20,000 nucleotides of DNA from Vermamoeba vermiformis (taxonomy: Eukaryota): positions 729,052 through 749,051 of the forward strand of contig JBEWZL010000239.1 of assembly GCA_045837725.1 (NCBI GenBank), read 5' to 3'. Position 1 is the first letter of the stretch. The number at the start of each line of letters is the position of its first letter. The notes below the pieces were generated by a model that was not told the DNA's origin, did not search any database, and worked only from the letters and a program-made list of their open reading frames with translations. This document shows positions 1 to 20,000 of the stretch, in pieces. The position numbers and the translations under genes were made by a program.

Positions 1-2
1 AG

Positions 3-1023
3 ATTTACAAGTTGTTGGTGCACATCTACCGCGAGATTGGCTTCAGACAAATGTCCGAGCTCTACGTCAAACTGTTCGCCAAGAAGTCCAAGTCATTCTT
101 GCTCGAGAGCGTGTCACGTGCTGGTTACGTACCTCCAAAGCGTAACGACGACGAAGAGGCCAAGATCAAATCAGACAACATGGAAAAAGTCAACCTGAAT
201 GCTAAGCCGTAAGTGTTGGATTATGGATTTATTATAACGACGTATTAACTCGGTAATATAGCAGTGACAATGACCGTGAAGTGAGCATCTTAGTGGACGA
301 TGAAAAGGCTCTTTACAACGTCGACTTCAACGCACTGAACATCACCGACAAGAAGCCTCTCAGCTTGGCCCTTGAAAATGCCTTCAGATATTTGCAACAA
401 GATCACAAGTACGTGCATTATATGTTAATAGAACACGATGTTAATCCTTTAATAGGGCGTACAAGGGCTGGGTAGATCTGACCAAGGGCGAGTTTGCCGA
501 CAAAGCCGTGAAGAAATTGTTCCCAGCCGAGTTGACACGAATTGGTTTGATCGCTCATCGTCTCGAATACCTCAAAGAGAGCGAGCATTTGTTCGCGACT
601 TATTGCGCACAAAAGTTCTGGTCCACCACTGTTTGGCTAGAACTCGTCGCGATCTACACTGAACGCAAAGACGTCAAGTAAGTATAAGCAACCTGTTATA
701 TATAGAGCAACGTTAACTCGATGTCAGGAACGCACTTATTGCTGCCAACCATATTCTGAATCACTTGACTCAACTTTATCAGTCCACCAAAGTAAGTTTG
801 ACTCGTGTCTGCCAAACTTCCACTTCTATTTTGCTAATTTGCACAATAGGTTCCTACAGTGATCAAGGTGCATATTTACAACTTAATCTCGTTGACCACC
901 TCCAAGAGAGTTCGTGACGTCGTTCGTCAATTGATCGAGCAAGAAAAGCTTCCGTTGCATCCGCAGATCCAACAGTTGGTTATTGATGCAACTATGGCCA
1001 AGGTCTTCAATTCTGAAAATTAA
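3..1023 (+). CDS. 3' part of a ChAPs family (Chs5-Arf1-binding / exomer cargo adaptor, Bch1/Bud7-like) TPR-type protein; multi-exon, 5' end outside the window
   Basis: The spliced frame (first intron 209-261, further GT-AG introns near 409-455, 679-727 and 792-849) reads IYKLLVHIYREIGF...LENAFRYLQQDHKAYKGW...ELTRIGLIAHRLEYLKESE...FWSTTVWLELVAIY, ending at TAA 1021-1023. This resembles the recalled ChAPs C-terminal pattern (Y.lL..I...iGw; LDnLF..LYeDl..y..w; W..lG.lA.RL...eeA). Confidence 0.6.
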
Positions 1024-1160
1024 CAGGAATAAAGATACTCAATTTTGTGATCAACGTGTCGTAAAAAGCGTTTCTTTTTCTCCTTCCCATTTTTATGTCA
1101 ACTCATTCAAAATACAACACAAGCAACAAATTAATAATTTTATTTAATACAACATAAATA

Positions 1161-2724
1161 ATGGATAGAAGCAAGCGACGGCACGAGAATCATTCAGATC
1201 AACCGCAGAAAAAAGTCAAAATAAATAATAGAAATAATGACAATTTATTTCCATCGTTGGCAGAGTTACATGACGACATTTTGGACCATATTATTACCAA
1301 ATTTTTAGGGGTGAGTTCCTTGCTTACCTTGGCAATGACATGCTCCAAGCTTAACAATTTAGTCAGTTCTCAATATAAGCGAATTATGCGCAGAATATTT
1401 CCTTGTCGTATGGATACAACCGAGGAAGTCAGAGATCAGATCCAATCCGAGTTGAAAAACATCGCAAAGATAGAGAAGGCTTTTAATAACAAAGTGCGAG
1501 TTATTGAGGTCGATGATGATCCTCAGCGCAATGTTCCACCAATTTTCAAATCCTTTCCAGGGGATCCAAACAAATTGATGTGTGTTACGGCTGGAGCTGA
1601 CAACAGCCTCGTGCAAATTGTAGACATGGAACAAGGCAATATTTATGCAGTCAGTATAAACTTCTCAATTCAAGATGTAGCAATGTCTTCCGATCAAAAA
1701 GTTGCTTTTCTCGGTCGGGATGGAAGAGTGCAGATCCACTCCGTCAAGAATCCAGCGAATTGGACCAAAGTTTGTGCATTCAAAACCGAACTTCTGCGCG
1801 CTAATATTGTCTGGATGAGTAAGACGAGTCTGAGTGTAATTTAATGTCGAGTCTAATCCTCTCCTCCACAGGTTCTACTGGCCACTGGCTCATTTACCAC
1901 AAGACAGTGGGCAATTATCAAATTGTTAATGAAATGGGCGAAACAATCAAAGAGGTGCAATACCAAGACAACAAGTGGCGTTTGTTCGCGATATCCGACG
2001 ATGGATGTGACGCGGTTCTACTTTTATACAGGCGTAAGTGCAGCAATAGATGATTCGTAAGTACTAACGTAGTTTATGCAGCATATAAATGTGGCACATT
2101 AAGTCGCGTTGATTTATTGACTAATGAAGCTACGTGGTTATCCGACACCGAAGACGCGGCAGATGATTTTTGCAACTTCAAATTTCTCACTGGCACTGAT
2201 TGGGTGGCCGTACGAACGCTTTTAACATAGTAGCTGTATTCTAATTACGTGTTATTTAGTGGCAGAGAATGGGCACAGAGAAGTTTGCGCTGTTCATGTA
2301 CAACTTGAAGACCGGTGAGCGCTACTGGACGCCAACGAGCTGCGGTCCAAGGCTATCGTACGGCGGCACAATGGTGTGCCACACAGGCGATAAATTCAAA
2401 GTCTTGAAGGTGCATGATCTCTACTCGGATGAGCGTTTCGAAATAGGTCCTTTTGATAATTGCAGGCTACATTCCGCGGAATGGACGCACCTGTTAGATG
2501 AAGACGGCAATGTGAACGAACGCATTGTAGCGACACTTAGTACTATCAACCGTGCGATTGGTATAATCGATCCGAGCTCTGGCAAACTGTTAGCTGAAGT
2601 GTACAACGCGGGATATGACGTGCAGTGGAAGTTGTACTGCCTCTTGGCAAACGGTCGCACACTTGTATTTCACGACCAGTATGATCGACACGGCTTGTAT
2701 TTCATGGTTTGGAACTTGTATTAA
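1161..2724 (+). CDS. F-box protein with C-terminal beta-propeller-like region (4 exons)
   Basis: F-box motif SLAELHDDILDHIITKFLGVSSLLTLAMTCSKLNNLV follows a basic N-terminus. Introns 1819-1871, 2034-2081 and 2210-2259 join ORFs 1161, 1844 and 2269 in frame. Beta-rich, WD-like segments are present (DVAMSSDQKVAFLGRDGRVQIHSV). Confidence 0.8.
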
Positions 2725-2741
2725 ATCTATATCACATCGAT

Positions 2742-4929
2742 TTATTTACTCGTCTTTTTGGTCTTTTTCTTCGTGTTCGTTAGTGGTCGTTTTGATTTCT
2801 TCCCTTTGTCGCTAGTTTTGTTGTCGTTGTCGCGCGCTTCTTTTTTCTTTCCGAAACCCATTTTCTTCGGGGCGCTCTTGAACAAGAGTCTAATCGGTGT
2901 GCCTGTGAAGGGATAGTGCTTGCGAATAGCGTTCTCCAAGTACCGTTCGTAGACGTCATTGATCAGATCGACATTAGTGGCGAAGATTACGAAGCACGGC
3001 ACGCTCATGGAAATCTGCGTGATGTATTTGATCTTCACTTCTCGATTGCCATCGTGTGGTGCTCGTTGCAGTAATTGTGCTCGTTGCAGAATGGTGAATA
3101 ATTCATTGCTGCGCACTTTAGCTTTGCGTTCTTTAGCGATCTGCACGGCCAGATCGACCAGCTCGGGAATGTTTTTGCCCGTTTTGGCTGAAGTGAACAT
3201 GATGGGAATGTACGGCCAGTACTTGAAATAGCTGCTCACACCCTCTCTGTAGCTCTCTTTGGTGACTTGGCCGTTCTGTTCTGCCAAGTCCCATTTGTTG
3301 ACAACAATGACAGCTGATCGATGGCGTGACACCACAAAGCTGGCAAGTTTGACATCGGCCATTGAAGGCCCGGTCAGTGCGTCAATCACGATCAACGACA
3401 GCGTACTTCTGTCGATCACTTTCAAGGCCCACAACACGCTCAACTCTTCCAATTCGTCTTCGCGCCGCTTTCTAATGCCAGCTGTGTCGATTAACGTGAG
3501 CGGTGTTCCTCGCCACGTGACGAGTTCGTCGACTGGATCGGAGGTCGTGCCTTCGACCGGTGACACGATGGCACGTTCCACGCCGAGAATTGCGTTCAAC
3601 ATGCTGGACTTGCCGACATTAGGCTTGCCAATGATGCTGATTTTAGTTTCCCCGGTGTTCAGACTGCTTTCTTCTTCGTCTTCGCTTGCAGGCTTTTCAA
3701 AACCAAGCTTCGGGAACAATTCTGTTATTTTGTCGAGCAGATCTATTGTGCCAAGGCCGTGTGCTGCTGACATATTCAAAGGATCGCCGAGTCCAAGACG
3801 TTCGATGCTAATGTTCGTTAGAAGAGTCATTGCATGGTTTGAGAATATACGTACTTCATGCCGGCGACAGCTTCAAATCGATCGGGATTGTCCACCTTGT
3901 TCATGACCAAAATGACAGGTTTGCGTGCCAGGGAATTTTCTTTTTGTTCGGCATCGGTCACGCCTTGTTTGCGCAAAATTCGTGCGAGATCTTTGTCGCT
4001 TTGCACCGGATTGGCTTTGTAATCTGCGGCGAGTTAGACACGCTTTCTTAGGCGAGTAGCTGTTAATAATACGTGCCTAACATGTAAATTATGACGTCTG
4101 CTTCGGCGATGGCTGCAAGTGCTTGTGCGTGAATGTCGTGCGACCACGGGTCACTGTCACCAAACATGCCTCCAGTGTCTGCCACGATAAATCTGCGTTC
4201 TGTATTAGCGTGTCATCGCAGCATGTAACTCAATTCGACGTACTGCCAGTCGTGCCACTCGCACACACCGTACACGCGATCACGTGTCGTGCCAGGCGTG
4301 TCAGTGATCAGGGCTTTGGATTGGCCCACGAGACGATTGAACAGCGTTGATTTGCCTACATTAGGACGACCGACAATTGCCACGAGTGGTTTGCGACTGA
4401 GAAAATATTAGCACGTGGTTCTTTAGCAGAATCAATCACCTACCCTGCCTCGGGTTTGTTGGTCTGAGTATCTGGTTCGCTGAGTACTTCGCGCCGTTGT
4501 CTCGGATGGCTGGCTAATGACTCGATATCTTTGCGCTCTAAAATCTGTTGCTGGTCAGTTTTGATGAATTCACGATCGCGGATCATACATTTTTTACTAA
4601 ACGTGTTGGTGAGGGCTGCCATTCATATTTAATTGGATCATGTGTTCTCTTTTTTACATTTTTGGTGTCCACCCAACTTTTAATGTCCTCTCGCGCTTAA
4701 AAAAAATGTCAATAATTAGATCTATTGTCCTGAAGCTTCTAAAAAATCAATAATGCCAAAAATAAAGTATCTAATCATAATAATAACCTAATAGCGTATC
4801 TTCAGATTTTTTTGAGGCAGTGTTGGTCTTCTGGTCTTTCTGGATCTTATTCTCGTTGGATCGAGCTGGCTTATTGGCACCTTTGGTTGCAGAAGAGCCA
4901 ATTGCCCTTAAAATTATTGATCTGTACAT
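2742..4929 (-). CDS. der: Ribosome-biogenesis GTPase Der/EngA (two G domains plus KH-like domain), probably mitochondrion-targeted; 7 exons
   Basis: GD1 has [28 protein letters not shown] and NKVD; GD2 has [20 protein letters not shown] and NKWD; the C-terminus has Y.RYLENAIR...FTGTPIRL. Exons are 4929-4788, 4695-4589, 4544-4444, 4396-4244, 4192-4077, 4023-3855 and 3807-2742. The two 5'-most exons are less certain. Confidence 0.93.
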
Positions 4930-5035
4930 TATAGACAATAAATATTGATGTGCACATCAAGAAAATTTCGTTACAAATGACGGGTTGACTTTTTTCCTTT
5001 AGTTCACCTGTGGAGCACAATAGGCAAACCACATT

Positions 5036-6779
5036 ATGAAGTCCGTATTAGTATTGATCGCCGTTTTATGCTGCACATGCTTTGTGCAAGCTGCTGTTGC
5101 GAAGAAGGACGGATGGCAGCCAAACTTCCCCGTTTTTAACTGCTCATCGTTGCCAACGCCTCCTCCTGCTAATGACGTGCGTCAATTGCGTCCAGGAGTA
5201 AGTAATTGTACATTTAAATGGATTGAAACGCATCTGGTGACGTCCTTCTAACGCTTTTTAGAATATCAAAGTTGTAATGGCAGTTGGCGACTCTATCAGG
5301 TAAATAACGATAATTATGCCGAATATCTTAATTATAGGCGTAAATTAGACTTTTCATTAGCTATTTCTATTTACTGGTGGTTGAAAATAGTAATCAAGCC
5401 CACTAACGTGATCGTACTCGATATTATAGTGCCGGATTTGCCATGAATGCTGGTCATTTTTGGGACGTAAAAGGTTTCGTCGAGTTTCGAGGGGATGTGT
5501 TCTCGATCGGTAAGAGAATCGATTTCTTTTCGCAAGTGCACCCATAAAATAAAATAATTATGACAGGTGGCAACCCGAAAGCCAAAACTATTCCTAATTA
5601 TCTAAAGGTAACCCGCAGACCCTGCGATCTGTCAAAAATATTGACATTTCTATTTTCAGAACTACAACCCAAATATCGTCGGTGCTTCCGTGGGAGATTC
5701 TTTACCCTTGGATGCCTTACAATGGCAAAATCATATCATTCAACCGTTCGATCCCGAAATTACGCACTTGAACGGAGCGCAATCCATGGCACGTATTGAT
5801 CACGTTCCTGCTCAAATTGAGTAAGTGCTAATTTACGCTAATATTCTCGTGTATTAACATATAGCAGCTACATTACACAATCGTTGCAAACCACGTACAA
5901 AGATAAAGTGGATTTCAAAAACGATTGGAAAATGATGACCATTTTTATCGGTATGACGAATATTGATAGCCACTGCATATGCTGACTATTGTAGGTGCTA
6001 ATAACATCTGCCCGTCGTGCACGAACCGAACGGACGTTACTCCCGAGTATTTCGAGCGGGTAAATACTTCAAATTTATTACTGGTTGAGCTAGCTAACTA
6101 GGTTAACTTATTGATTTCAGATGATGGATTTCGTAGTTAATAAGATCTACACGCAAATCCCTCGCACGTATGTGAACATCGTGCTGTTGTTCAATATTTC
6201 ACAAGGTACTGTGTTGTGCACCGTTTCTGCTTTGGATCTGACATTTTGCTCTAGTGCGCCACATTGTTATGCAAAGTGACTACTGCTACTTCATGTGGGA
6301 CACTTTTTGCAAGGGCGAGTGCGGTTGCATGACAGATCCGAAGACTACACCTGCCAACTTGTAAGCCCGTCAAAGAGTCGTGTTAACGTATTATTATCGC
6401 TCACTGCTTACTACTTTAGACAAGCCATGGACCAGCACAGCGTTTGGTTCAATCAAGCCATCAGAAAAGTCGCCAAGAAGTGGCAGTCCAAGAACTTGAA
6501 GGAGTTCAACGTCATTGCTCAGCCTTTCATCGAGAACTGTAAGTTACAATATCTTCGCAAAGGCGCGTCTAATTCGATCGTGCAGTGTTGATTCAGCCTG
6601 AAATTGGCTTGGACTTCTTGAGCAAGCTAGATTGTTTCCACCCCAGCACCGTGGCCAACGTCGCGTGGAGCATTGGTCTGTGGAACAACATGTTGACTCC
6701 TGAAGGTCAAAAAGAGACCAATCTCGATCTCAACAACTTGTACTATAAGTGCCCTGATGCCAACACGTTCTTGCAATAA
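5036..6779 (+). CDS. Secreted phospholipase B1-like SGNH/GDSL lipase (many short exons)
   Basis: Signal peptide MKSVLVLIAVLCCTCFVQA is followed by the PLB1-type motifs LRPGNIKVVMAVGDSISAG (catalytic Ser), EFRG.VFSIGG, TIPNYLK.YNP, DFKNDWKMMTIFIGANN and LDCFHPS...A.GLWNNML (DxxH). Confidence 0.9.
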
Positions 6780-6794
6780 ATTCTAGTTTTGTGT

Positions 6795-8438
6795 TTACGC
6801 GTAGGCCACTGCAAAGTAATAAATCGGCTTGCAAGTCAGCACGATCACTAGTTGCACGAATCGAATGCGCGGTGAGTTCAGCTTTGGATTGAAACCAAGT
6901 ACGCCAGTGTGCTCGAATGCCAGCAGCATCACTACAAGAGAGTCAATTTTCTTTCTATTAAACAGCCTTGACTCACGTACCAACGCCTAACAAGATGCAC
7001 GACGAATAGGGCATGGTGATCCGTTGATGTACTCCCATGACAGCGTACTCGTGAAAAAACGCTGAAACAGTGCATGCTGTGATCATGGCCTTTGTCTTTC
7101 CAAAGCCAAAAACTCGTTGACTGAAGGAAATAGTTATTAATAAGCTGTCGGTTACAACGATGAGTTTCTTACCTTTGTTTGTGCGGATACTCGTGCAACC
7201 AGCGATGGACCGGCGCGCTCCATTTTTGGAAGAACTTCGTGACAGATTCCGTCGTGCTTGTGAACGATATGATTAATATATGGCCTTGTAATCCTTTAAA
7301 TCTGATAAACATACTCAGCGTAGTAATAGTTCTTATGAGGGTATCCAGTCACATCCGCTAAGAAACTCATGAAGCAGTACCAGAAGGCGTATTTGCTATG
7401 CGTGCGTTGGCGTTAACATAAATGGGCAAATATGAACTTACCTTAGCTCGAAGCACAGCACTATGACCGGGACATGGCTAACGTACAACCAAGCAGAAAA
7501 GGGCTGTTCCAGAGCGGGAAACACAATCCAAATATCTAAGCGACTATACGTTAAAATAACGTACTAATGCATTATAAAGAGCTCTTACGCAGCCAATGCA
7601 CGATGCTGAAGCAGCAGACCGCTACAAATAGCTCACGAATAGCTCTGGGAATATTCGTCTCGATAGTCTTCAAGTTCTGTTCGTAAACTAACGTTGGATA
7701 CCACACAAATTTTACGAAGCTAATTAAGCAGTGCCGCGCTACAAATCTTGGTTAGCGCTAGATATCGTTGAAATATCGCGGGTGTACCTGAACCCTCCTG
7801 CTTTGACGATTCAAAAGCGTGCAATTTCATGCAAAGTGCAATTGCTTGGAGAAGTACTAACGAGGCACTTCCTGTTGTGCAAGAAAAATATTGGAATTAA
7901 AGGCAGACTAGCGAACGGATAACTTGCCAAGATTCAATCGGAAGTGCGCAACCCAGTAGAGCGGGGCAATTAAGATTATTAATTGACTCGATGCATATAC
8001 GATTATCCAAGCGATGTTTTGAGTGAAAGTGAGGCGAAGTAAAAGTACACAAGCAACGCAGAGCAGTCCTTGAAGCTAGGTGAATAATCAGAAATTATTC
8101 TTATTTTTAATAATACTTGATACACTACCGTAGTCACTAAAATGGCATTATGTAAATTATCAAACGCAAAGCGAAGAAAAGAAAAATATTTAGCAACAAT
8201 TATTGGCGATCTGATTGCGTGTACGACCATGAACGCCATCATAATTCCCTGGAAAGCAAAATAAAATTAGAATAAATTTTTTTAAGGAATTTGCGCGTAC
8301 TAAAATGAATAAGCGATGCGCTTGAAGATCTTGATAAAAGTTGTCGAAGCTTAGATTGTCGTAGGAGTGAAGATATGAGGCCTTTGTGCCAGCTTTGGGC
8401 GTATTTGTACGACGGGTGTGTTGTGCCTTGTCTTTCAT
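6795..8438 (-). CDS. MBOAT membrane acyltransferase of the DGAT1/sterol O-acyltransferase (ACAT) group, divergent
   Basis: The spliced minus-strand frame gives MKLHAF, YPTLVY, FLADVTGY, ESVTKFFQKWSAPVHRWL and SAFFHEY (catalytic His), with multiple hydrophobic segments. ATG is at 8438 and TAA at 6797-6795. Confidence 0.85.
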
Positions 8439-8671
8439 TTGAACGTTGAGAAAAGGATCTACACGCAGAAACGGTCTCGTTCGGCTACAACCACCGTTAC
8501 AGTTTCAATTTGATGATTCCTATAAATTACTCGGATAAGGGCGACTGCGAATAGATAGCGATAATTCTGAGTACTTTTCTTGTTTCATTTTTTAAACTGG
8601 TTCGGCGGCACAAACAGTTTTGCAAATAAACAAAAGTGCGGTACCACTACAGAAGGCTTAGGAATAATATA

Positions 8672-11090
8672 ATGACTGCTTCGTGGGGTGCTGTATTGAA
8701 CTGGCGCAATTATTTTCGCACCCAAAGGCTAGACATTGGCGATACCAATACATGTAAGTATAAACGTATAAATATCGTAGATAATAAGATAGGAATTAAT
8801 GTAATTATTTGGCAGTGTTGGCGAAAGTATTGGGTATTTTGGATCTCATCGCTTATGGTGTTGCTAGCACTGTCGGAGTAAGGAATAATATATGTTTAAT
8901 ACCATTATATCTAGATTATAATTATCACCAAATATTATCAAGAATAACTGAAGTAAGATTGCAAATTGAAAATCGATCAGATCGTGATCAACCGTCCAGG
9001 TTCCATTTAATTCAATTTATTGTCCACAATGTTAACAAAAATAAATATTTTTAGGCTGGTATTTTCGTAATCACGGGCACAGCAGCCAGAGATTTAGCGG
9101 GCCCGGGAGTGGTGCTGAGTTTCCTTTTCGCCGCCTTTGCTTCATTGCTATCAGCGTTTTGCTACGCCGAATTTGCTGCTAGAATTCCTGGTAATTATTG
9201 AGATCGCCAGAAGGAAAAACAAATTTACTAACGTTTTTAGTTGCCGGATCTGCATATACTTTTTCCTATGTTGCTCTCGGTGAGATCGTTGGTTGGCTGT
9301 AAGTTAGCATAAATTATATTAACTGATGTAACCATTCTTATTACTCAGTGTTGGTTGGAATTTGACGTCTGAGTACGCCATCAGCGCATCCGGTAAGTAC
9401 TCGGCGGTTATTTAGCGTCGTAAATTTCTTCTAATGATAACTCAGCCGTGGCTCGCTCATGGGCCGAGTACTTGGTTGGATTTTTCAAGACCGTTGGCGT
9501 GCCTATGCCCGTGTGGTTGTACGAATATGACTTGCCTTGGGAGTGGTCCAAGGGCTTGTTCTCACTGTCGCCGCTCTCCGTGCTCATTATCTTCTTGTGC
9601 ACTTTGCTTTTAGTATTCGGTAAGCGCACACATGTCGCAGTACGAGGGTAGTTGTTAACAAGCTGACAGGTGTCAAGGAATCAGCTACATTCAACAAGAT
9701 TGTCACCGTGTTCAATATCACTGCAATTTTGTTCATTATTGTCACTGGAGCATTTTATGTTGATCGCGCCAATTACAAAGAGTTTTTCCCTTACGGATTC
9801 AACGGTGTGTTCAAGGGTGCAGCCAAGGTCTTCTTCGCTTACATTGGCTTTGATGCCGTGTCTACACTCGCTGGTGAAGTCAAGAAACCTAAGCGTGATC
9901 TGCCGTTGGGTATTGTCGGTACTTTGGGCATTGCCACCGCCTTGTATTGCGGTGTCGCTATCGGTAAGTCCACATCAATCACGCGTCTGTTAGTCCCTAA
10001 CACGCTCGCTCAGTCATCACCGGTATGGTGCCCTACAGTCTCCTTACCGACACTCCTTTGGCTGATGCGTTCGATCGTGTTGGATTGCACTGGGCTGCCA
10101 TTGTCATCGGTATCAGCTCCGTGCTGGCACTCAGTGTCACAACGCTTGCTTCGTTGCTCGGTCAGCCTCGTATTTTCTTCCAAATGGCACAAGACGGTCT
10201 TTTGTTCGCCGCTTTTGGTCGCGTCAACAAGCAGCAGTCTCCTGTCTTTGGCACGTGGATCACCGGTTTGTTCGCCGGTGTGTTGGCCGCTGTCTACGAC
10301 TTGGATCAATTGACTGGCATGATTTCTATCGGTACTTTGCTGGCCTTCAGCGTTGTGTGCGGTGGTGTGATTGTGTTGAGATACCGTGATTCCGCTGTCA
10401 CTGCTTCATCCGAGCCTTTTTTGCCAAGTAAGTGGCGATCCTAATTGACCTGCTTCGAGACTAATATCTGTGCAGAGTACTCCGAGGCTCAACTCCCTTA
10501 TGCTCGTCCTTCGTTCCGTGGATTTGAAGGCCTGGCTCGTTTCTGTTCTAAAAATATCTCGCTGGTGATCGTCGTTTATTTCTTGTTCTGCGTCGGTTGG
10601 GCTGTGCTCGCCAGCAGTTTGGTAAGTCATAATAACATCGTAAACGGTTCTAATTGATTCAAAGCAAAACGCTTACGACACCGATCCCGAAAACACTAAA
10701 ATGTGGGTCCTCGCACCTGCCGCAGTGCCATTGTTGCTCACATATTTTGCATTGCAAATCATGAAGTAAGTGTCAATTTACGCCACAAATGCCACGAAAT
10801 CGTACACAATATTGACCCGTATATTAATCAGCCACCGAGATTGTCCCGATACCTTCCAAACACCACTTGTGCCTCTCTTGCCAATGCTCGGTGTCTTGGC
10901 AAACATCTATTTGATTTGCCGTCTGACTATTGAAGCCGTGGTGCGAGTATTGATCTGGTCGGGCATTGGCATTATCATTTACATGACCTACGGCATCCGC
11001 CACAGCAAACTCAACAATCCTGCTACTAACGGCTTCGATGAGCGCACGCCTATTTTGGTCAATGCTAACAACGAAGACAAGAGCGATTGA
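8672..11090 (+). CDS. Cationic amino acid transporter (APC superfamily, CAT/SLC7A1-like)
   Basis: Motifs include DLIAYGVASTVGAGIFV, AGPGVVLSF, FCYAEFAARIPVAGSAY, FFAYIGFDAV, EVKKPKRDLPLGI, GQPRIFFQMAQDGLL, ISIGTLLAF and C-terminal FQTPLVPLLP...YGIRHS. The gene has multiple short GT-AG introns. Confidence 0.95.
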
Positions 11091-11551
11091 GATTAATGGT
11101 GAGGTAATAAAGAACGAATTCACAAAAGCAGGATCCAAATCCAGAATTTTTACAAATTAAATCTCCGCTGTTGGAATTATTTCTAAATTTAGTCAAAACC
11201 TGCGTTTAATAACAATATAATCCACTGACTGATCATAAAATGAACACTTTGTGTTGCGATGGTTGTTTTTGGCCGAAGATCGCTAAGAAGAACACCACTT
11301 GACGGATGTAAGTTGAAACATTTTGCAATTAATATCCACGAACGTTCCTAAACTTGCTATCGTATCTTAGAGATTATTCGAACGTATCGCAACGGAAAAT
11401 AGAAAGAAGAAATTTCGGGAAGAATCGAATCTGGTTTGCTCAAATTTTCGATAAGAAGTGCCGCATAGTACAGTCATCTGGCTATAAGAAGAACGAAATT
11501 ATTTTGATTCAGTACAACTAGTACTTGCCCAACAACAGACACACGCGCCGA

Positions 11552-13036
11552 ATGAAAGTAGCATATTTGCTTTTGATCCTTGCCTCGATCTGCCACAGTT
11601 ACCATGCCCGCTGGTTCGGTAAGTCTCTTGTAATAATATAATACACCGTAATTAGTGGAAATAATTCTCCTCATTTGTTTCAGATCAAGTCACAAACTTT
11701 CAGTCCGGATTGCCTTCCAAAAATTTGAGAGACGTGTCTTTTACAGCCTTCAATCAAGAGTGGAAAATCAGATTATGGCCCAATACTCACTTCCACCGTA
11801 GCAGCGAAAGCGCCTCAGCCCCGATCTCGACTTACTGGATCGGTACCGTACTGAGCACTCGAGGAAGCGACTGCAGCGTCACATTAGAAGCAGATGGCTC
11901 CATATTTTCAGCTCATATCTTATTTCCTAATGGAAGACAATTTCGTATAACAAGAGTCGCAGATTTTGTCGAAAAACACGGCGAGCTTCAAAAAGAAGTG
12001 CTGACCCAACTTAAGAACGAAGATCTGATAATTTTTGACGTCAACAGACGACAAGGACACGTAAAGAGACAATCGCCGAGTAAGTACTTTGAAATGGCTA
12101 TTTTCCCGTGCCTTTACTAAAATAATCGTTGTAGCGCGCGAAAATGACGGAATCGAAGTACGTGGCATTGAACTGCCTCGTGAAATACCCACTACTCCGT
12201 CAACTATCTCTATTAACGACACTCTGCCCGCTCCTCGCTGGAATCAAAGCCTCATCTTGTACGTGGATCAAGCAATGATCGACAGTCACGGAAGCTTCGA
12301 TAAAGCCGCTCAAATCACGCTTAGCGCAATGAATGACGTAAACTTGATTATGCGACATAACGGCCTCCGCGAATGGACCGTCAAAACTGAAGTACGACAA
12401 GCAGCTGATGGTGTTGTGACGAGCACTAACACTTTGCGCGACGTCCTTGATCAGTAAGTTATTTAACAAAAATTATCGTGCCTGAGAGTCTAATGAGTTT
12501 ATTTTATTAGGTTCAAGAGCGCGAGAAGCCAAGAGATGCAAGAGTCCGATCCCGATTGCTCGCTGTTAGTTACTGGTCGCGATGATCTCAAGACGGGTAC
12601 GATTGGCTGGGCGTTCGTTGGTACGACTTGCATGAAGTGGACAACTCAACAACAGACTCGCGATGATTGGAAAGACGTGGCATCACTCTGCAGTGCCGTC
12701 GTTAGTGACATTGGATTGCATCTCTATTCAATTATCACTCACGAGCTTGGTCATGTGCTTGGTTCTCGCCATATTGAAGACGCATCGGATGATATTATGC
12801 ATCCTGAAGTACCCCTGGTAGATCTTGCTGCTACTCGCTTCACATGTGCTTCAAAATCTTCACTTGTTGCTGATTGCTCTGGCAATGTCAAATACACTTG
12901 TGATCCTACTGCTCCTTTCAATGAGAATGATCCTGCCTTCAACAATCCACAGTTGTACATGTTACTTGGTGCTGGATCCATTTCATCCCCATTCAGCTGG
13001 TTGACTGCTGTAGTATGCTTTCTGTTCTTAGTTTAA
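11552..13036 (+). CDS. Secreted reprolysin/ADAM-like (M12B) zinc metalloprotease, probably GPI-anchored
   Basis: Signal peptide MKVAYLLLILASICHS, prodomain-like segment ending HVKR, GWAFVGTTC, metzincin motif HELGHVLGSRH, Met-turn DIMHP and hydrophobic tail SPFSWLTAVVCFLFLV*. Introns are 11619-11683, 12080-12134 and 12454-12510. Confidence 0.88.
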
Positions 13037-13745
13037 CTTAATTTATTTGTAAATGTTGTACATACTGTAATTACTGTAAATAATTGGAGATTTAATGCAA
13101 AACCCTTGCCATAACTTGCTGGATAAAACAATAGTAAGTTTCACACCAATGGAGATAAATATTTTCTTGCCATTTCTCCTTGGAATAATCTGGCACAAGC
13201 TCATGTTTTATTAAAGATTTCCTCAGAATCTGCAACCCCCTCCTCTTGAAGTTTTGGTTGCTGTTCATTAAGTGCAGTGTTGATATCATTAAAGTCCAGT
13301 TGGTTGTTCCAGCACCTACAGGGTCCTGGACAGAATTTGAAGCAATATATTCTTTCTTAAGCTTGAGATAGCAAGCACTTGAACCATCTTGACTGAAGTA
13401 TCTTTGCTTAATTAAATCATTATTAGTAAGTGTAAATTGATATTTCTAAGCTGTAATTGAATGATAATTGTTGGTAGATCCAGAGCCTGTCAATCCATCT
13501 TTTCACCACTACTTGCCAGCAACCTATAATGCAACAATGGCAGTGCCAAAACAAGAGATTACAGGACAAAGAAGCAACCCAAAAAGTTGATTCTGATGAC
13601 ACACCTGGAGCCAGTTGAACCTGGTTTTGATTTTAGATATTTATTGGAAGACAATAACACATGTTCTAAACCTGCAGTACCTTTGATTATTTAAGTATAG
13701 ATATTGAGCAGAGTAGATCTGGATATTTCACCACAATAACCACAA

Positions 13746-14398
13746 ATGCCTGTTTTTTCAGCCATTGTGTTGTGTAGTGGTACACACTCTGGAGCAATCT
13801 GGTATGCATACCAAATTTCCATTTTTAGTCAAGTACATGTTGCAAGTAAGGTTTGGTTTGGTTTGGAGAGTTCGGTGCCCTTCAATCAACTAGTTTTAAA
13901 GAAATCATTAAAGAGTAGTGAGCACTACGAGATAGAAAAGGCTGTGTATACAAAGATCCACCAGTTGGCCATGGAGTAAGTGTAGAAATTGATATATCCC
14001 CTCAATAATGATTTTTTAGCGACCTGAAAAGACATTTTCCAGAGCCAATTGGTTTTAATGACAAAGAGCACTGCATATTTGTTGGGTTTGAATCACCCAC
14101 CACCATTTTTACAGCGTTAAAAGCAAAATCACTGGCCCCTTTTGCCAAAGGGTTAATTGCTCAGTTCTCAAAAGTATTGTGATACATGCACATCTGCATG
14201 GATGTACCTTGGGAATATTCTTTACAGAACCTTCTCCTCAGTCACAAATTCTATCATTCAGAAGTTGATGGAAAAGTGATCTGAGCCCCTCTGCTCATCT
14301 TCATTGATTTCACCTCCAAGCAAGATAATGGTAATATAAACTATTTTAAACTCTTATTTGCAGTGCAAAGTATGATCAATCAGGGGCCACCTTATTAA
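13746..14398 (+). pseudogene. Decayed protein-kinase-like gene
   Basis: After intron 13976-14019 one frame reads LVLKKS...YEIEKAVY...FPEPIGF...VL*YMH...EYSLQNLLL...VI*APLLIFIDF. This gives a beta3 Lys, alphaC Glu, D/ExxxxN loop and DF motif in kinase order. There are two in-frame TGA codons (14180, 14282). The 5' end is uncertain. Confidence 0.45.
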
Positions 14399-14462
14399 GA
14401 GCAACTAAAAAGGTTCTAGAAGGTTTGTGCATTGTCACCTACAGGTTGCATTAGGGTTAGGA

Positions 14463-14953
14463 TTAGGATGCTAGTACCTGGAGTGTGGCATTTACTAATT
14501 CTATCTTGTGAGTTGACATCGGAGCGTTGCTTCTTGCATAAAGATCTTTCAAAGCCCTATGAAGAAGGTTGTTTGCTGCAAAATAGGTCATTTTACATCA
14601 GGGCTATGTGTTCTATTTTACCTAACAATGGTTGTGTCATCCGCTGTAAGAACTTCTCTCTTAACGTAACAATATTGTTGCCAACCAGGAAGAAGGAAGC
14701 AAAATCTGACAATTGAAGGGTTTTATGAGGGCCTTTGTCTGCTAGATGGCAGATGCAGTTCACCAAGAGATCTTGAAGTGGAATTGAAAAACACTCCCTA
14801 AACTTTGTTAATTGTGGAAGCCAATAGCATTTAGTTATAGTTACCACTTGAAAAAATGCCTCAAAAGACCCTGGTTCAAATTAGATATGGGCTGTTTTTT
14901 TTGGTCCACGTAGAGTTCATGGTTGGACCCTATTATCAGTTGCTGATTTCCCT
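14463..14953 (-). CDS. Small unknown protein, three exons, start not identified (possibly TE cargo or a remnant)
   Basis: Introns 14844-14798 and 14621-14576 join an open frame ...QGLLRHFFKWECFSIPLQDLL...TQPLLANNLLHRALKDLY...LQVLAS*. No family was recognised. Confidence 0.4.
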
Positions 14954-15034
14954 CTGTTGAAGAGAAATAAAGAATTTACGAGGGAAAAAGGTAATTCAAT
15001 GTATTTATTTTTAACGAAATCAAGGAATGACTTG

Positions 15035-15628
15035 TTATTTGAACTTTTTGAGCAGATCAGGGCAGTCTAATGCCTCTTCAGGTAACCATTCATTGTACTG
15101 ATTACTCCAACCAGACCACTTCACTAGATATTCATCACCATGAACTCCTCTACGTTTGTCTACTAAATCTTCTACCTCATATTCTTCAGTTGATTTTACC
15201 TCTGCTGCTTTATACTTGACTTTTCCAGTTTGCAAATCTCCAGCAATAAATTTGTTGTGACATTGATCAAAATTCCATGCTAAGCATTCTGAACAGAAGC
15301 ATGGTCTCTTTTGATGTTTGATTGTTCCAATCTTGTTCCGAAAAGATGAAATCATAGGAAGCCTTGATGCCTTTTAAAGGAGTGCAGTCATCTTCTTCAT
15401 CATCAGAATCATACTCAACCAAAAAAGTGGGGCCACCTGGAACAGTATCAAAGTGATCTGCAAGCTCTTGGGCATTATTGATGTGAGCATCATCTTATAA
15501 AGTGAATTAGCTCTGGTAAATTAAGGAGTAACTTACTATCTAGTAAAAATAACCTAGTATTGGATTTCAAAGTTGCACCTCTGCCATCACAAGAACCTTT
15601 TCTATGGTATGCAGGATCTACAGCCCAT
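15035..15628 (-). mobile_element. 3' remnant of a Sola2-like DDD transposase fused to a C-terminal chromodomain (frameshifted)
   Basis: The frame reads WAVDPAYHRKGSCDGRGATLK, matching the HGK..DG.G...K motif with G>R. After intron 15536-15494 it reads INNAQEL...PLKGIKASYDFIF, then a frameshift near 15330, then KRPCFCSEC...C.N and the chromodomain YEVEDLVDKR...EYLVKWSGWSNQYNEWLPEEALDCPDLLKKF*. Confidence 0.7.
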
Positions 15629-15670
15629 CTGGGTAGGAGAAAGTTGACCAGCTAAAATGGTCGTTTATTG

Positions 15671-16008
15671 ACATATGTTATTACAAGCATATGACATTGG
15701 GTAAATTGAAAGAACAACATAGGCTATTTAGCTAATAGCATATGCTATTTACAGCCAAGTACACCCTTTTGGCTGGCCCAGGACAAGGATTTCAGGGAAA
15801 AAATGTACTGCCCCTCTGCTTGTTTTTAGCATTGTGATTCATTACACACTCACAAAAGCATATGCTCTGAAAAACGTCCACATGAAAAATAGCATATGCT
15901 GTTGCATCCGCTCCGCTGATGTTTGCTGCCCTGGTCCATTTTTTGTTGTTTTCTTCTTTTTCAATGTATTCATATATGTAAGTGGGCTTGCCCATATAGG
16001 GCTAGCCC
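15671..16008. repeat. Cluster of AGCATATGCT/CATATG palindromes plus a GGGCT(T/A)GCCC doublet
   Basis: AATAGCATATGCTATT at 15734-15749; AGCATATGCT at 15857 and 15891; partial copies at about 15671 and 15686; GGGCTTGCCC-ATATA-GGGCTAGCCC at about 15984-16008. Confidence 0.7.
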
Positions 16009-16095
16009 TGTCACCCCCCCTCAAAAAAATAAAGAATATTCTACCCGATCATTTTTTACTTAAGCAAAATTTTACTTTGGAAAATTATCCACAGG

Positions 16096-16210
16096 AAAAA
16101 AGAAGTCTCACCCTGAGTGACTCTCAAAAAAACAAAGTCCTGCAGGTCGTCTCCACACGGAGACGATCTCATAAAAAAACAAAGTCCTAGTAGGTCGTCT
16201 CCACGTGCCC
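16096..16210 (+). repeat. Short array of A7CAAAGTCC motifs separated by hairpin spacers
   Basis: AAAAAAACAAAGTCC occurs at 16126-16140 and 16173-16187 (period 47), with a degenerate copy near 16096. The spacer contains the hairpin TCGTCTCC-ACAC-GGAGACGA. Confidence 0.75.
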
Positions 16211-16274
16211 TAAAAGAGGCTTCAACGCGCTCCATAATAATTCCACTATTTTTACGCCCTCTCTCTTATTAATA

Positions 16275-18131
16275 ATGGATCGAAATTCCCGAAAGGCGAA
16301 GGATTCGATCAAAAAGAAGGTAAAATTATTTTCGCCTTTAGCCCGCTTTCTCAACCAATTCCCGGCCATTATAATATTATAAATTTTAATTATATTGCAT
16401 ATTTATTGCTGTACTAATTTTTACTTTAGGAGAAAAAGAAACAACTTAATCCGGATGTGATCGAGGACGTAAGAACTTACGTGGAATTCTTAGTTCTTGC
16501 CCGTAATCGATCCACGCCGAGTAGAACGGTCAACGAGTACATGCAGAAGCTTTTCAAGTCCTTGCCGTACTATGCACCGTTTTGTCACCGAGCGGATTTC
16601 GTTTTTTTCTACGTGGTGTTCGACTTCCACGGGATGCTTCCCCCAACCCCTGAAGCTACCATGGCGTATCCAAAGTGGCTCAAATCCTACCGGCAATTGG
16701 TCGCCGAAGGCCTTGGTACCGTCGTTGGAGCGAATCCGGTGTGGCAAGGCTTCATGGAGCTCATGCAGCGATTCCCGAAGCTCCTAGCGTCTGCGCAACA
16801 AAATATCTGCATGCCAAACGTCACGAAGAGCATCGTCAACAACATCGCAACGTCAACCATTCACGAAGAGTGTGCCAAACTTTGGTGCGCGATGCGGTAC
16901 AACCCGAAGTACTGGGTTTCGCTGGAGCGTTTAAACGAGCTCCTCAAAGAAATTGGCTGTGCCGAGTGCCAATACGACGTGCCCTTCTTCTCCCAATGCA
17001 TCTCTGCGGAAACACCGATAGTGCGAGTCCCGGCGGCCAACAGGAATCCAACGTGCGCCAACAGTCTACGGTTATAGGAACTGCGACTGTCCCCGAGCAA
17101 AACAAACACCTGGAAATCGATTTTATCCCTGGCTGTAATGGAGTTGGCTACGATTGGTTCCATCTTCCCTCCTTCTTAGCACGACATCCCGTTCACAACA
17201 AAAATAAGAGGAGTGGAGAAAGCCTGCCGCAGCCCGATACTAAGCGGCGACGTACCGAGACATCACCTACAGAAGTTGGCGGTGATGGCTCAAGCGCAGA
17301 CAACGAATCCAGTCATTCTGCGATCGAGCTCGATTTGTTCGCCTTACCAGCATCGCCGATTCAAAGTCCAGGATTTGTTAATGATGAAATACCGGTAAGT
17401 ATTCCTCACTGGCTTTGATCCTTGGCTGACATTCTTCAACAGACTTCCCCGAGCAACCCTGCTTCGCCGATCCAACTCACTTCGCCGATCCAACTCACAG
17501 ACACCATTGCTACCGTCACGAATCCTGCTAAACCGCCGCTTCCCCACGCAATACAGCTCAAAGGTAATGCTTCTATTTATTACTGAACCTACTAACGCCA
17601 AGTTCAGTCACTGCGCGAGTCCAATTTTCGTTGGTGCACGGCCTTTGCTTAGTAGGCAAACCTCTCCTATTTCAGGATGCGCAGGGCGATCGATTTTGTC
17701 ATTTACAAGCTGAAGATTGCGTTATTAGTCTCTCCGAGCTTGGTACAATCAACCTTGTCGACCAACTTGCTTGCCGAGAATTCTCTTTTGTCCGCGTGAA
17801 GTTGGCCCCGACGGGTTTGTCCATGACTAACCATGCCGTACAATTGTAAGTATTATATTGAAATATTCGATGATAAAATGCTAACAGTACTGCTAGCATT
17901 CAACGTTTGCGGGTCCTTTACTTCGAGGATGTGGATCCGGAATTAGTTGCTAAGTTATGTCCTGTACTTTACCCTTCGCTCCGCTCATTGACGGTCAAGG
18001 GCATAGTACAGCCACTGGCGGCCTACGCATTTCCCTCCTTCAAGTGGCGCAACTTGCAATTTTATATATACTTGGGGTTGACGGATGTTTGGGTTATGGA
18101 AAAAATACTAAGTCGAACGGCCAATGCATGA
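16275..18131 (+). CDS. Orphan protein of about 519 aa, 6 exons; Lys-rich N-terminus, KRRR NLS-like motif, Ser/Pro-rich linker, weak LRR-like C-terminus
   Basis: Exons 16275-16319, 16430-17020, 17065-17394, 17443-17563, 17608-17845 and 17897-18131 total 1560 nt in one open frame. Intron 17021-17064 is the least certain. An 18-bp duplication encodes SPIQLT twice near 17462-17497. Confidence 0.65.
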
Positions 18132-18158
18132 AATATCCTCTGGACAACACCAGAGGCA

Positions 18159-18480
18159 TTACCTTCAAGGCAACAACGTGGGAATTCGTTACCTTCAAGG
18201 CGACGACGTCCAAAGTCAGGGAGGTCGTTACCTTCAAGGCGACAACATCCAAAGTTGGGTAGGTCGTTACCCTCAAGGCGACAACGTCCAAAGTCAGGTA
18301 GGTCGTTACCTTCAAGGCGACGACGTCCAAAGTCAGGGAGGTCGTTACCTTCAAGGCGACAACATCCAAAGTTGGGTAGGTCGTTACCTTCAAGGCGACA
18401 ACATCCAAAGTTGGGTAGGTCGTTACCCTCAAGGCGACAACGTCCAAAGTCAGGGAGGTCGTTACCTTCAAGGCGACAAC
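18159..18480. repeat. 39-bp tandem repeat with an internal hairpin
   Basis: The core TTACC(T/C)TCAAGGC(G/A)AC(A/G)AC starts at 18159, 18189, 18228, 18267, 18306, 18345, 18384, 18423 and 18462. The unit is GTCGTTACCTTCAAGGCGACGACGTCCAAAGTCAGGGAG. Confidence 0.97.
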
Positions 18481-18787
18481 TATAGTAGGCTTCTGGGTTA
18501 TAAAAACCCCCTGGTTATAGAGTTTAAAGTCCCTTCAAACTGTTTTTTTGTCGAACTTTTTTGCACAGATTTTAGAAATTGATAGTAGCTAAGAACAAGA
18601 AGAGCATATCATAAGCGCTTATATTGTACTAAAAACATAGATAAATGGCAAAGTTACAAAGAAATAGCAGAGGTACATTGAAAATATTTTTATTTACTTT
18701 TGTACAATTAATTACAAGGCTGGGAGAGGTGAAAGTATAACAGGCAACTGGTGCGGCTTGATCCAAGAGGACTTAAAAAGTTACAAG

Positions 18788-19233
18788 AAAAAACCTAAGT
18801 CCACAAAGGGTTAGAAAAAAAACAAAGTCCAAGAAGGGCCAGTATCACCTGAAACCGACCCTCAAAAAAACCTAAGTCCAAACAAGGGGCGGTATCGCGT
18901 CAAACCGCCCCCTAAAAATTACTAAGTCCAAACAAGGGGCGGTATCACGTGAAACCGACCCCTAAAAAAAACTAAGTCCAAGAAGTGAACTGAAAAAAAA
19001 CTAAGTCCAGCAAGGGCCGGTATCACGTGAAACCGCCCCCTGAAAATTACTAAGTCCAAAAGCAAACCGAAAAAAAACAAAGTCCAAAAAGGCCGGTTTC
19101 ACGAGAAACCGCCCCTGGAAAAAAACAAAGTCCAAAAACCCCGGTTTCTCGTGAAACCGACCCTGCCAAAAAACAATGTCCTAGCAAAGGGTAGGTTCCA
19201 TGAGGAACCGGGGGTTGAAAAAAAACTAAGTCC
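18788..19233 (+). repeat. Array of 11 A-tract-C(T/A)AAGTCC motifs, with palindromic spacers in 7 of 10 intervals
   Basis: Motifs end at 18802, 18830, 18879, 18929, 18979, 19008, 19057, 19085, 19133, 19181 and 19233. The long spacers carry GGG(G/C)CGGT(A/T)TCACGTGAAACCG(A/C)CCC-type inverted repeats. Confidence 0.95.
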
Positions 19234-19383
19234 AAGAACTCCTGGATGCAGCAGTAACTGACCCAAGAAGTTGGATAAAAATTACAATAAATTCAAGCTT
19301 AGAAAATAACAGCAAGGGAAATTAAATTAACAGGAGAAAACATAATTAGCAGCTGCACTTGAAAATAAAAATAATTAACTTAC

Positions 19384-19970
19384 CATCCAACCATGGCTAG
19401 TCACACCAACTCTTGGAAATGCACAGACAGGCATAGCATAGGGCCAACTGGGAGTGTAGTGAAACACTCAACCATTGGCACTACACTATGCTCCTCTGTG
19501 CCGAGGAGTTGTGGTGCGCGAGTGCTGCGAGGAAGAAGATTGGAACCAAAGATTTTTTGTTGTTGTGAAATAAAGTTACCAAAAAAACTTTTTGACCAAT
19601 CAAACAGAGTTATCTGGAAATTTCAACAGGTAGAGTTGGCGAACTCCTCCCTATGCATTCAAATTGGGTCTACACCCTGAACTCAAGTTATGGGCAAAAT
19701 GGGGCTGTTGCTGGCAACAACAGAACCTGGGTGTCTGGATCTGAGAAAGTGAAGCAGATCTGGTTGCAAATACCACTTGACAACAACCACAGTAAGGTAA
19801 AACATGTGCAGGTCAATGCACATTAAAGTCTGACTCCTTGCAAGAAAGATAAGACCTGTTATTGATGAAATTTCCCAGCAAGAGCTCCCGTGGGAGGTAA
19901 TAAAATTGATAAATTCCTCCCCGGGGAGGAGCGAAAAGGAAGGAGAACTTTCGAGGGGCTGAAATTTCAC
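19384..19970 (-). pseudogene. Possible decayed coding sequence of unknown family
   Basis: One minus frame runs about 195 codons interrupted only by TGA (19683, 19659, 19623, 19401) and ends at a GTAAGT donor-like site at 19383. No motif was recognised. Confidence 0.3.
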
Positions 19971-20000
19971 CCTGTTAATAAAATTGATAAACGAGCTCCC
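19882..20000. repeat. Start of another motif-plus-palindrome repeat, truncated by the window end
   Basis: TAATAAAATTGATAAA occurs at about 19898 and 19976, and GAGCTCCC at about 19882 and 19993. Hairpins are CTCCC-GT-GGGAG and TCCTCCCCGGGGAGGA. Confidence 0.6.

What the first reader, a model, noticed from the sequence alone, without database searches (positions are those of the whole stretch)
16096..19233. CpG-rich orphan gene bracketed by same-orientation AAGTCC/hairpin arrays: candidate undescribed mobile cassette
Seen in the sequence: the same AAAAAAACAAAGTCC box occurs just upstream (16126, 16173) and downstream (18788-19233) of an apparently intact 519-aa gene of no recognisable family, in direct orientation. 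Both clusters have a similar 47-50 bp period and a hairpin between boxes, but the hairpin sequences differ, so architecture is conserved more than sequence. The gene keeps abundant CpG while neighbouring sequence is depleted and decayed. The cassette lies where the 5' half of the Sola2-like transposase would be expected. Inference: it is either a younger insertion or a methylation-protected module whose protein may bind the flanking arrays, for example an anti-silencing factor in the manner of Arabidopsis VANDAL/VANC (analogy only).
Basis: partly seen in the sequence, partly recalled or inferred. Interest (0 to 1): 0.72.

Follow-up and report, generated by a model that had tools for sequence, protein, structure and literature searches.

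The report
Telomere-pointing stacks of one-ended transposons
The supposed cassette is three broken, nested starts of an unclassified family of large mobile elements that pile up at this protist's chromosome ends, all facing the telomere, and may spread by replacing the chromosome tip.

Summary
Boxes, hairpins and CpG contrast are real, but they do not bracket a cassette. The window is the last 20 kb of its contig. It holds three nested left ends of different element families: A (15970), C (18061), D (18481), each followed by its own hairpin array. The gene is gene 1 of family A. Here it has lost about 1 kb upstream, carries a net 19-nt frameshift and is cut by C; an intact 758-aa copy lies on C56. 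In 65 contig-end regions, 103 of 103 termini (11 families) point to the contig end, and 52 of 52 adjacent pairs are co-oriented. Junctions follow a target AT/AC. No right end was found, and 13 of 14 telomere-bearing ends examined carry such elements facing TTAGGG. Fuller copies share a gene order; the most conserved gene has D-D-Y-E motifs in the order of Rep_trans/Phage_CRI rolling-circle initiators (suggestive, not proven). Best model: one-ended transposition that replaces the chromosome tip. Gene 1 has no recognisable fold. It tracks CpG retention only partly, and the shared box does not protect family D.

The parts
15035..15969 (-). CpG-decayed remnant of a chromodomain-bearing gene (probable older transposon; class not established), cut at 15969 by terminus A. 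Context, not part of the family.
   Evidence: Chromo PF00385 E 2.5e-13; 99% copy of 14877-15640 on C278; CpG o/e 0.15 over 12860-15969
15970..16207 (+). Left terminus of family A (begins TCATATATG after target AT), terminal hairpin, then about 1.7 units of the 45-47-bp box+hairpin array (9.7 units in the C56 copy)
   Evidence: 25 of 25 A termini preceded by AT; terminal hairpin z -3.4; TRF on C56
16207..16212 (+). Joint of an internal deletion of about 1.0 kb (remaining array units and upstream region of gene 1) relative to the C56 copy
   Evidence: blastn pieces 15961-16207 and 16212-18062 lie about 1,010 nt apart on C56
16274..18060 (+). Gene 1 of family A, damaged copy: exons 16274-16318, 16430-17394 (net -19 nt at about 17025-17075, stop at 17075-17077), 17443-17563, 17608-17845, 17897-18060. 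Novel helical N domain, basic NLS-like stretch, start of a leucine-rich C region (judged by eye).
   Evidence: 91% to C56 copy; intron 17564-17607 spliced in X2; 19 synonymous vs 10 non-synonymous changes in 197 codons; AF2 pLDDT 79.9, no fold match
18061..18480 (+). Left terminus of family C (begins TTTATATATAC after AT), joined inside gene 1; 39-bp hairpin array 18186-18480
   Evidence: 11 of 11 C termini after AT; C56/C260 continue the gene at this base; an X1 contig crosses the junction at 100%; TRF
18481..20000 (+). Left terminus and first 1.5 kb of family D (begins TATAGTAGG after AC), joined inside the C array; runs off the contig end
   Evidence: 19 of 19 genome-wide pattern matches follow AT/AC and point to a contig end within 26.4 kb; 95% to C266 over 18481-19913
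18788..19233 (+). D-family array: AAAAAAMWAAGTCC box plus GGTWTCNCGNGAAACC-type hairpin, period 48-50 with short 28-bp units

Best explanation
The region is a stack of three left ends of a superfamily of large (12 kb or more), intron-containing, multi-gene DNA elements that live at chromosome ends. Shown: each family has an exact left terminus (T, a TA-rich start, telomere-like G tracts, then a family-specific hairpin array); it joins directly after a target AT/AC; all copies face the telomere; the distal side ends in the next terminus or in TTAGGG repeats. Inferred mechanism: an element-encoded tyrosine nickase (gene 3, probably of Rep_trans/Phage_CRI type) nicks the donor at AY^T, holds the 5' end and joins it to a 3'-OH after AY in a target. 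With no terminator, copying runs to the donor's telomere or breaks and is healed by telomerase, so the target's tip is replaced. Only events near chromosome ends survive, which gives the location and the polarity without targeting. The arrays are most likely binding sites for element proteins. Gene 1 is an accessory nuclear protein, possibly keeping its family unmethylated; the window copy is a casualty of later C and D arrivals.
For: Polarity: 103 of 103 termini point to the contig end and 52 of 52 adjacent pairs are co-oriented in 65 regions, 710 kb. Target: of 100 termini tested, 42 have an uninterrupted homolog; in 37 of these AT/AC already stands before the junction, and the next base is free (T17, A14, G6, C5). 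No resumed remainder: 31 of 42 had only continuous matches, and the 11 with discordant upstream sequence fell in arrays or dispersed motifs with no shared right end among those printed. The distal part of the window's gene 1 is found nowhere else in the assembly. No right-end cluster was seen in the visible part. Real telomeres: 13 of 14 TTAGGG-bearing ends examined carry termini or genes facing the telomere, among them 5 of the 6 contigs listed by the telomere pattern alone; on C44 an N terminus is followed at once by the telomere. Near-identical copies sit at different targets (C21 and C272; C232, C278, C270, C201). Gene order is conserved. Gene 3: 10 copies at 19-68% identity keep 21 invariant columns, including DxD, a D in xQDhA, the only invariant Tyr in K-x-Y on a predicted strand, and RxE, the order given for Rep_trans motifs N', I, II, III, IV in PMC5714925.
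Against: The Rep_trans assignment is not statistically secured. hhalign gave P 0.05 and 0.2 (probability about 1%) against a Phage_CRI alignment and no motif match against RepC-type proteins. The motif-chain test gave 0 of 500 for Phage_CRI, but placed motifs N', I and II elsewhere than predicted; for Rep_trans it landed on the predicted four motifs at only 40 of 500, and a gene-1 control scored as high (27.5 vs 27.8). The test was post hoc. Motif spacing is 2-3 times longer than in RepC or I2-2 pII. Regions were chosen by hits and lie near contig ends, where the assembly breaks in repeats (the window's contig has no telomere), so right ends may be under-sampled. No C copy seen extends to a gene 3. 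No helicase was found.
Confidence: 0.6

Rival explanations
1. Ordinary two-ended elements (Helitron/Replitron-like rolling-circle, or a DDE type with a 2-bp AY duplication) that nest in one another in subtelomeres; the right ends were lost at assembly breaks.
For: Most termini lie within a few kb of contig ends without telomere. Insertion 3' to a dinucleotide with fixed orientation is described for Replitrons (PMC10288648, passages). C56 holds a partial inverted copy of an A subterminal motif near its distal part.
Against: 52 of 52 adjacent pairs co-oriented; stacks followed to real telomeres end without a common right end; no resumed remainder; no terminal inverted repeat, DDE or HUH signature seen in genes 1-4.
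Confidence: 0.2
2. RNA-mediated terminal attachment as in Terminons or HeT-A/TART: an antisense transcript is primed at a chromosome end by a reverse transcriptase supplied in trans.
For: Same geometry: exact proximal end, variable distal end capped by telomeric repeats, chains, co-oriented ORFs with introns (PMC6431247, passages). Telomere-like tracts near most termini.
Against: No RT hit in any element ORF scanned. Junctions follow AY inside genes and arrays, not telomeric repeats. In Terminons the 3' end attaches, whereas here the genes read toward the telomere. No hammerhead among 8 Rfam matches, all below gathering score.
Confidence: 0.1
3. Remnants of a family of linear plasmid- or virus-like replicons, or recombinational subtelomeric units (Y'-like), whose left end recombines into chromosome ends; gene 3 is a replication protein rather than a transposase.
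For: Large size, conserved gene order, orphan genes, a winged-helix gene with weak hits to replication initiators (E 0.001).
Against: Exact junctions with only 2 nt of shared sequence; host-type short introns; no polymerase, capsid or helicase hit.
Confidence: 0.07
4. One reading: one cassette 16096-19233, an intact gene flanked by its own binding arrays.
For: A and D arrays share the box and a similar period.
Against: Three independent junctions with uninterrupted homologs; this A-C-D arrangement was seen once; gene truncated.
Confidence: 0.03

Closest known systems
Rep_trans (PF02486; pT181 RepC) and Phage_CRI (PF05144; I2-2 pII) rolling-circle initiators
   Same: Order of motifs D...D...Y...RxE with Tyr on a predicted strand; near-literal likeness of K-A-Y and R-L-E-L-T-L to I2-2 pII
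   Different: About 1,100 aa (estimate), intron-split, long inserts; no profile hit; acts on chromosomal elements in a eukaryote. PMC13107129 (passages) describes the family from bacteria and, newly, archaea.
Helitrons, IS91/ISCR, Replitrons (HUH rolling-circle transposons)
   Same: Exact start, orientation-specific insertion at a short target, terminal hairpins, read-through past a missed terminator (PMC5714925 section 7; PMC10288648 passages)
   Different: No HUH/RepHel gene seen; no right end at all; strict telomere polarity; conserved multi-gene cargo
Terminons (bdelloid Athena retroelements); HeT-A/TART (recalled)
   Same: Giant telomeric chains, co-oriented ORFs, distal truncation by telomeric repeats (PMC6431247 passages)
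   Different: No RT, no hammerhead; joins after AY in ordinary sequence; genes read toward the telomere
VANDAL/VANC of Arabidopsis
   Same: Fast-diverging tandem arrays that differ between related families; an accessory gene that goes with CpG retention (PMC5735166, abstract only)
   Different: No sequence or fold link found; VANDAL is a Mutator-type element (recalled); box-bearing D elements are CpG-poor

Membership tests
Rep_trans/Phage_CRI initiator (gene 3) | Motifs N' (D), I RxD, II T/SxY/ExG, III YxKxxE, IV W/LxRxE in order | tested here: inconclusive
   Invariant D, D, Y, RxE in order in 10 copies; R of motif I, G of II and K of III are not kept in most copies
Rep_trans/Phage_CRI initiator (gene 3) | Profile match to PF02486, PF05144 or NCBIfam models | tested here: not met
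   No match in six-frame genome searches (first look found no candidates) or in exon scans; hhalign probability about 1%. Exon-wise tests have low power.
Rep_trans/Phage_CRI initiator (gene 3) | TBP-like fold | tested here: inconclusive
Rep_trans/Phage_CRI initiator (gene 3) | Metal-dependent nicking with a 5'-phosphotyrosine link | not testable with these tools
   needs purified protein
Helitron | RepHel transposase (HUH Y2 plus Pif1 helicase) | tested here: inconclusive
   No hit in element ORFs scanned; genome search with PF14214 was blank but its controls were blank too
Helitron | 5'-TC start in an A^T target and 3' hairpin-CTRR end | tested here: not met
   Starts follow AT/AC with a free next base; only A begins TC; no recurrent right end
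Terminon / Penelope-like element | Athena reverse transcriptase | tested here: not met
   No RT hit in the ORFs scanned; not all ORFs of all families were scanned
Terminon / Penelope-like element | Hammerhead ribozyme next to reverse telomeric repeats at the attached end | tested here: not met
   Rfam scan of 6 loci with A, C, D, F termini: no hammerhead at E<=5
DDE cut-and-paste transposon (Sola2, ISL2EU, Mutator/VANDAL) | Terminal inverted repeats and target duplication | tested here: inconclusive
   No right end found, so a duplication cannot be scored; no terminus in reverse orientation among 103
VANC-like anti-silencing factor (gene 1) | Binds family arrays and lowers methylation of the element | not testable with these tools
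   Indirect only: CpG o/e correlation with exceptions

The most novel reading that the evidence does not exclude
A eukaryotic transposon class mobilised by a Rep_trans/TBP-fold tyrosine nickase, a family so far described from bacteria and archaea. It transposes with one end only, replaces chromosome tips, seeds new telomeres from telomere-like tracts in its terminus, and in some families carries an anti-silencing protein of unrecognised fold.
Probability: 0.35. Interest if true: 0.93.

Novelty: categorically new. Interest (0 to 1): 0.8.

Why it matters
If true, it adds a non-HUH rolling-circle route to eukaryotic transposition and a DNA-based counterpart to telomeric retroelements, in which selfish elements rebuild chromosome ends. 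Even if gene 3 is something else, a superfamily of at least 11 families with exact left ends, no right ends, strict polarity and no classifiable transposase is unexplained by current schemes. It also offers a natural comparison for methylation escape: sister families with intact long ORFs differ about threefold in CpG content.

Full report
Setting. The window is the last 20 kb of contig C239 (749,051 bp) in a 43.3-Mb, 309-contig eukaryotic assembly with short introns. Bases 1-13036 hold ordinary host genes with CpG o/e 1.18. Bases 12860-15969 are CpG-depleted (0.15) and end in a chromodomain remnant on the minus strand. The host organism was not determined.

Observation. The box, its direct orientation, the 47-50-bp period, the hairpins and the CpG contrast are real. 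The gene is not intact. Against copies on C56 and C260 it has three deletions totalling 19 nt, which stop the frame at 230 aa unless an unlikely 23-nt intron is assumed (526 aa), and it breaks off at 18060 where those copies go on to a 758-aa model. About 1.0 kb upstream is also missing. Its lineage was under purifying selection until recently (19 synonymous, 10 non-synonymous changes in 197 codons). It has 24 matches in the genome.

The cassette dissolves into three termini. A genome search with 16000-19300 gave 132 matches that begin at shared sharp boundaries. Family A begins at 15970, family C at 18061 and family D at 18481. Uninterrupted homologs show the joins are exact: C entered gene 1 after AT, and D entered the C array after AC. 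An independent contig crosses the gene-C junction at 100% identity. The upstream array belongs to A, the downstream array to D, and a 39-bp array to C.

A superfamily with one end. In 65 fetched regions (710 kb, chosen from search hits and telomere matches, so not a random sample) 12 patterns for 11 families found 103 termini. All point toward the contig end (for small contigs the orientation was set by the hit), and 52 of 52 adjacent pairs are co-oriented, which does not depend on that choice. A genome-wide pattern search for D gave 19 matches, all after AT/AC and within 26.4 kb of a contig end (lengths). Of 100 termini tested, 42 have an uninterrupted homolog; 37 show AT/AC before the junction and any base after it. 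The displaced remainder was not found behind a common right end. All 11 termini start TA-rich and most show telomere-like G tracts; TRF found a tandem array of period 32-55 behind 8 of 11.

The ends are telomeres. Contig breaks in repeats could fake polarity, so I followed stacks outward. C8, C209, C240, C32, C185, C164, C226, C228, C78, C260, C44, C50 and C59 end in TTAGGG with termini or genes facing it; C16 showed none. Five of the six contigs listed by the telomere pattern alone carry them (that list was cut). On C44 a terminus is followed directly by the telomere.

Gene content. A- and G-type elements share the order gene 1, gene 2 (basic and acidic tracts plus an unknown domain), gene 3; a winged-helix gene 4 follows in C56, C21 and C272. 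D- and H-type elements carry genes 2 and 3 at about 25% identity, with no gene-1 hit. No C copy seen reaches a gene 3. An unnamed database protein fuses the gene-1 domain to the gene-3 K-x-Y motif, which fits the same linkage in another sample. The gene-1 N domain folds confidently (pLDDT 79.9) as a helical domain with no match.

Gene 3 as the likely mobiliser. In 10 copies at 19-68% identity, 21 columns are invariant, including DxD, the D of xQDhA, one Tyr in K-x-Y and G-x-R-x-E. PMC5714925 (passages and section 7) lists Rep_trans motifs N' D, RxD, T/SxY/ExG, YxKxxE and W/LxRxE, with the Tyr in a sheet. The model of a single-exon piece puts K-V-Y at the end of a strand hairpin and R-L-E on a strand, but at pLDDT 57. 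Against this: Pfam, NCBIfam, PHROGs and fold searches are blank; hhalign recovers motifs II-III and IV against Phage_CRI only at P 0.2 and 0.05; the motif-chain test is 0 of 500 for Phage_CRI with three motifs misplaced, and 40 of 500 for Rep_trans with all four where predicted but a control protein scoring as high. I put the assignment at about even odds.

Mechanism. Shown: exact left ends, AY target, polarity, telomeric location, variable distal ends, recent copies at different targets. Inferred: nick at AY^T, transfer of the 5' end to a target after AY, copying to the chromosome end or breakage with telomerase healing, and survival only near tips. Read-through past a terminator is described for Helitrons and ISCRs (PMC5714925); here it would be the rule.

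Anti-silencing. Ten of 10 gene-1-bearing elements have CpG o/e 1.01-1.19. Six of 8 without a gene-1 hit have 0.32-0.51 despite long open frames, two have 1.07-1.13, and C32 (1.14) is of unknown status. The families are related, so this amounts to few independent comparisons. The AAGTCC box cannot be the protective signal, since D elements have it and are depleted, while a G element has gene 1 without it. A VANC-like role (PMC5735166, abstract only) is possible at perhaps 0.3.

Novelty. Seven literature searches listed no such elements; PMC13107129 (passages) places Rep_trans in bacteria and a distant relative in archaea. The library is incomplete and supplements were not read. The architecture alone fits no family tested. 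Verdict: the finding as framed is wrong in its unit and in the state of the gene, but it marks an unclassified telomere-polar element superfamily. Interest 0.8.

Noticed in passing
window 12860-13036: The 3' end of the host M12B metallopeptidase gene has lost its CpGs while the rest of the gene keeps them, as if methylation spread from the neighbouring repeats. Similar CpG-poor zones of about 1 kb precede termini on C270, C232, C201 and C72.
   Followed up: partly
window 13036-14876: CpG-poor sequence with no Pfam hit in the three frames scanned; 13420-13675 has weak matches to a repeat on C301 and to C190.
   Followed up: no
L030 (C238), just before the C terminus; L045 (C278): The chromodomain gene also lies reversed immediately before a C terminus on C238, and as a 99% identical 764-nt piece on C278.
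   Followed up: partly
window 19899-20000; L043 (C65): Motif AATAAAATTGATAAA-CTCCCCGGGGAGG occurs in pairs and in both orientations inside D-type elements, perhaps a promoter element.
   Followed up: no
L080/L081 (C21), L033 (C8), C221, C260: A dispersed motif with the core ACAGATCGACCACAAGGGTCG occurs in both orientations upstream of genes in several families.
   Followed up: no
L096 (C240) 10620-10890; L021 (C56) 340-470: A GGAATTCTAGGTGCCC satellite sits directly before the telomere on C240 and near the end of C56.
   Followed up: no
L022 (C56) 2548-2997: Gene 2 begins with about 14 SPKK-type repeats like histone H1 tails (Pfam HC2, E 0.0002, below cut-off).
   Followed up: no
L046 (C62), 508-aa frame, and C270 distal part: A D-headed stack carries a different gene family (31% between the two) with a TLDGQHR motif that recalls ParB-like nucleases (recalled, not tested).
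   Followed up: no
L170 (C265) 413 and 451; L045 (C278): Termini stacked only 38-172 nt apart (D into D, A into D), so termini are themselves frequent targets.
   Followed up: partly
window 2742-4620 (-): A Der/EngA-like double GTPase gene with introns among the host genes (judged from motifs, not scanned).
   Followed up: no
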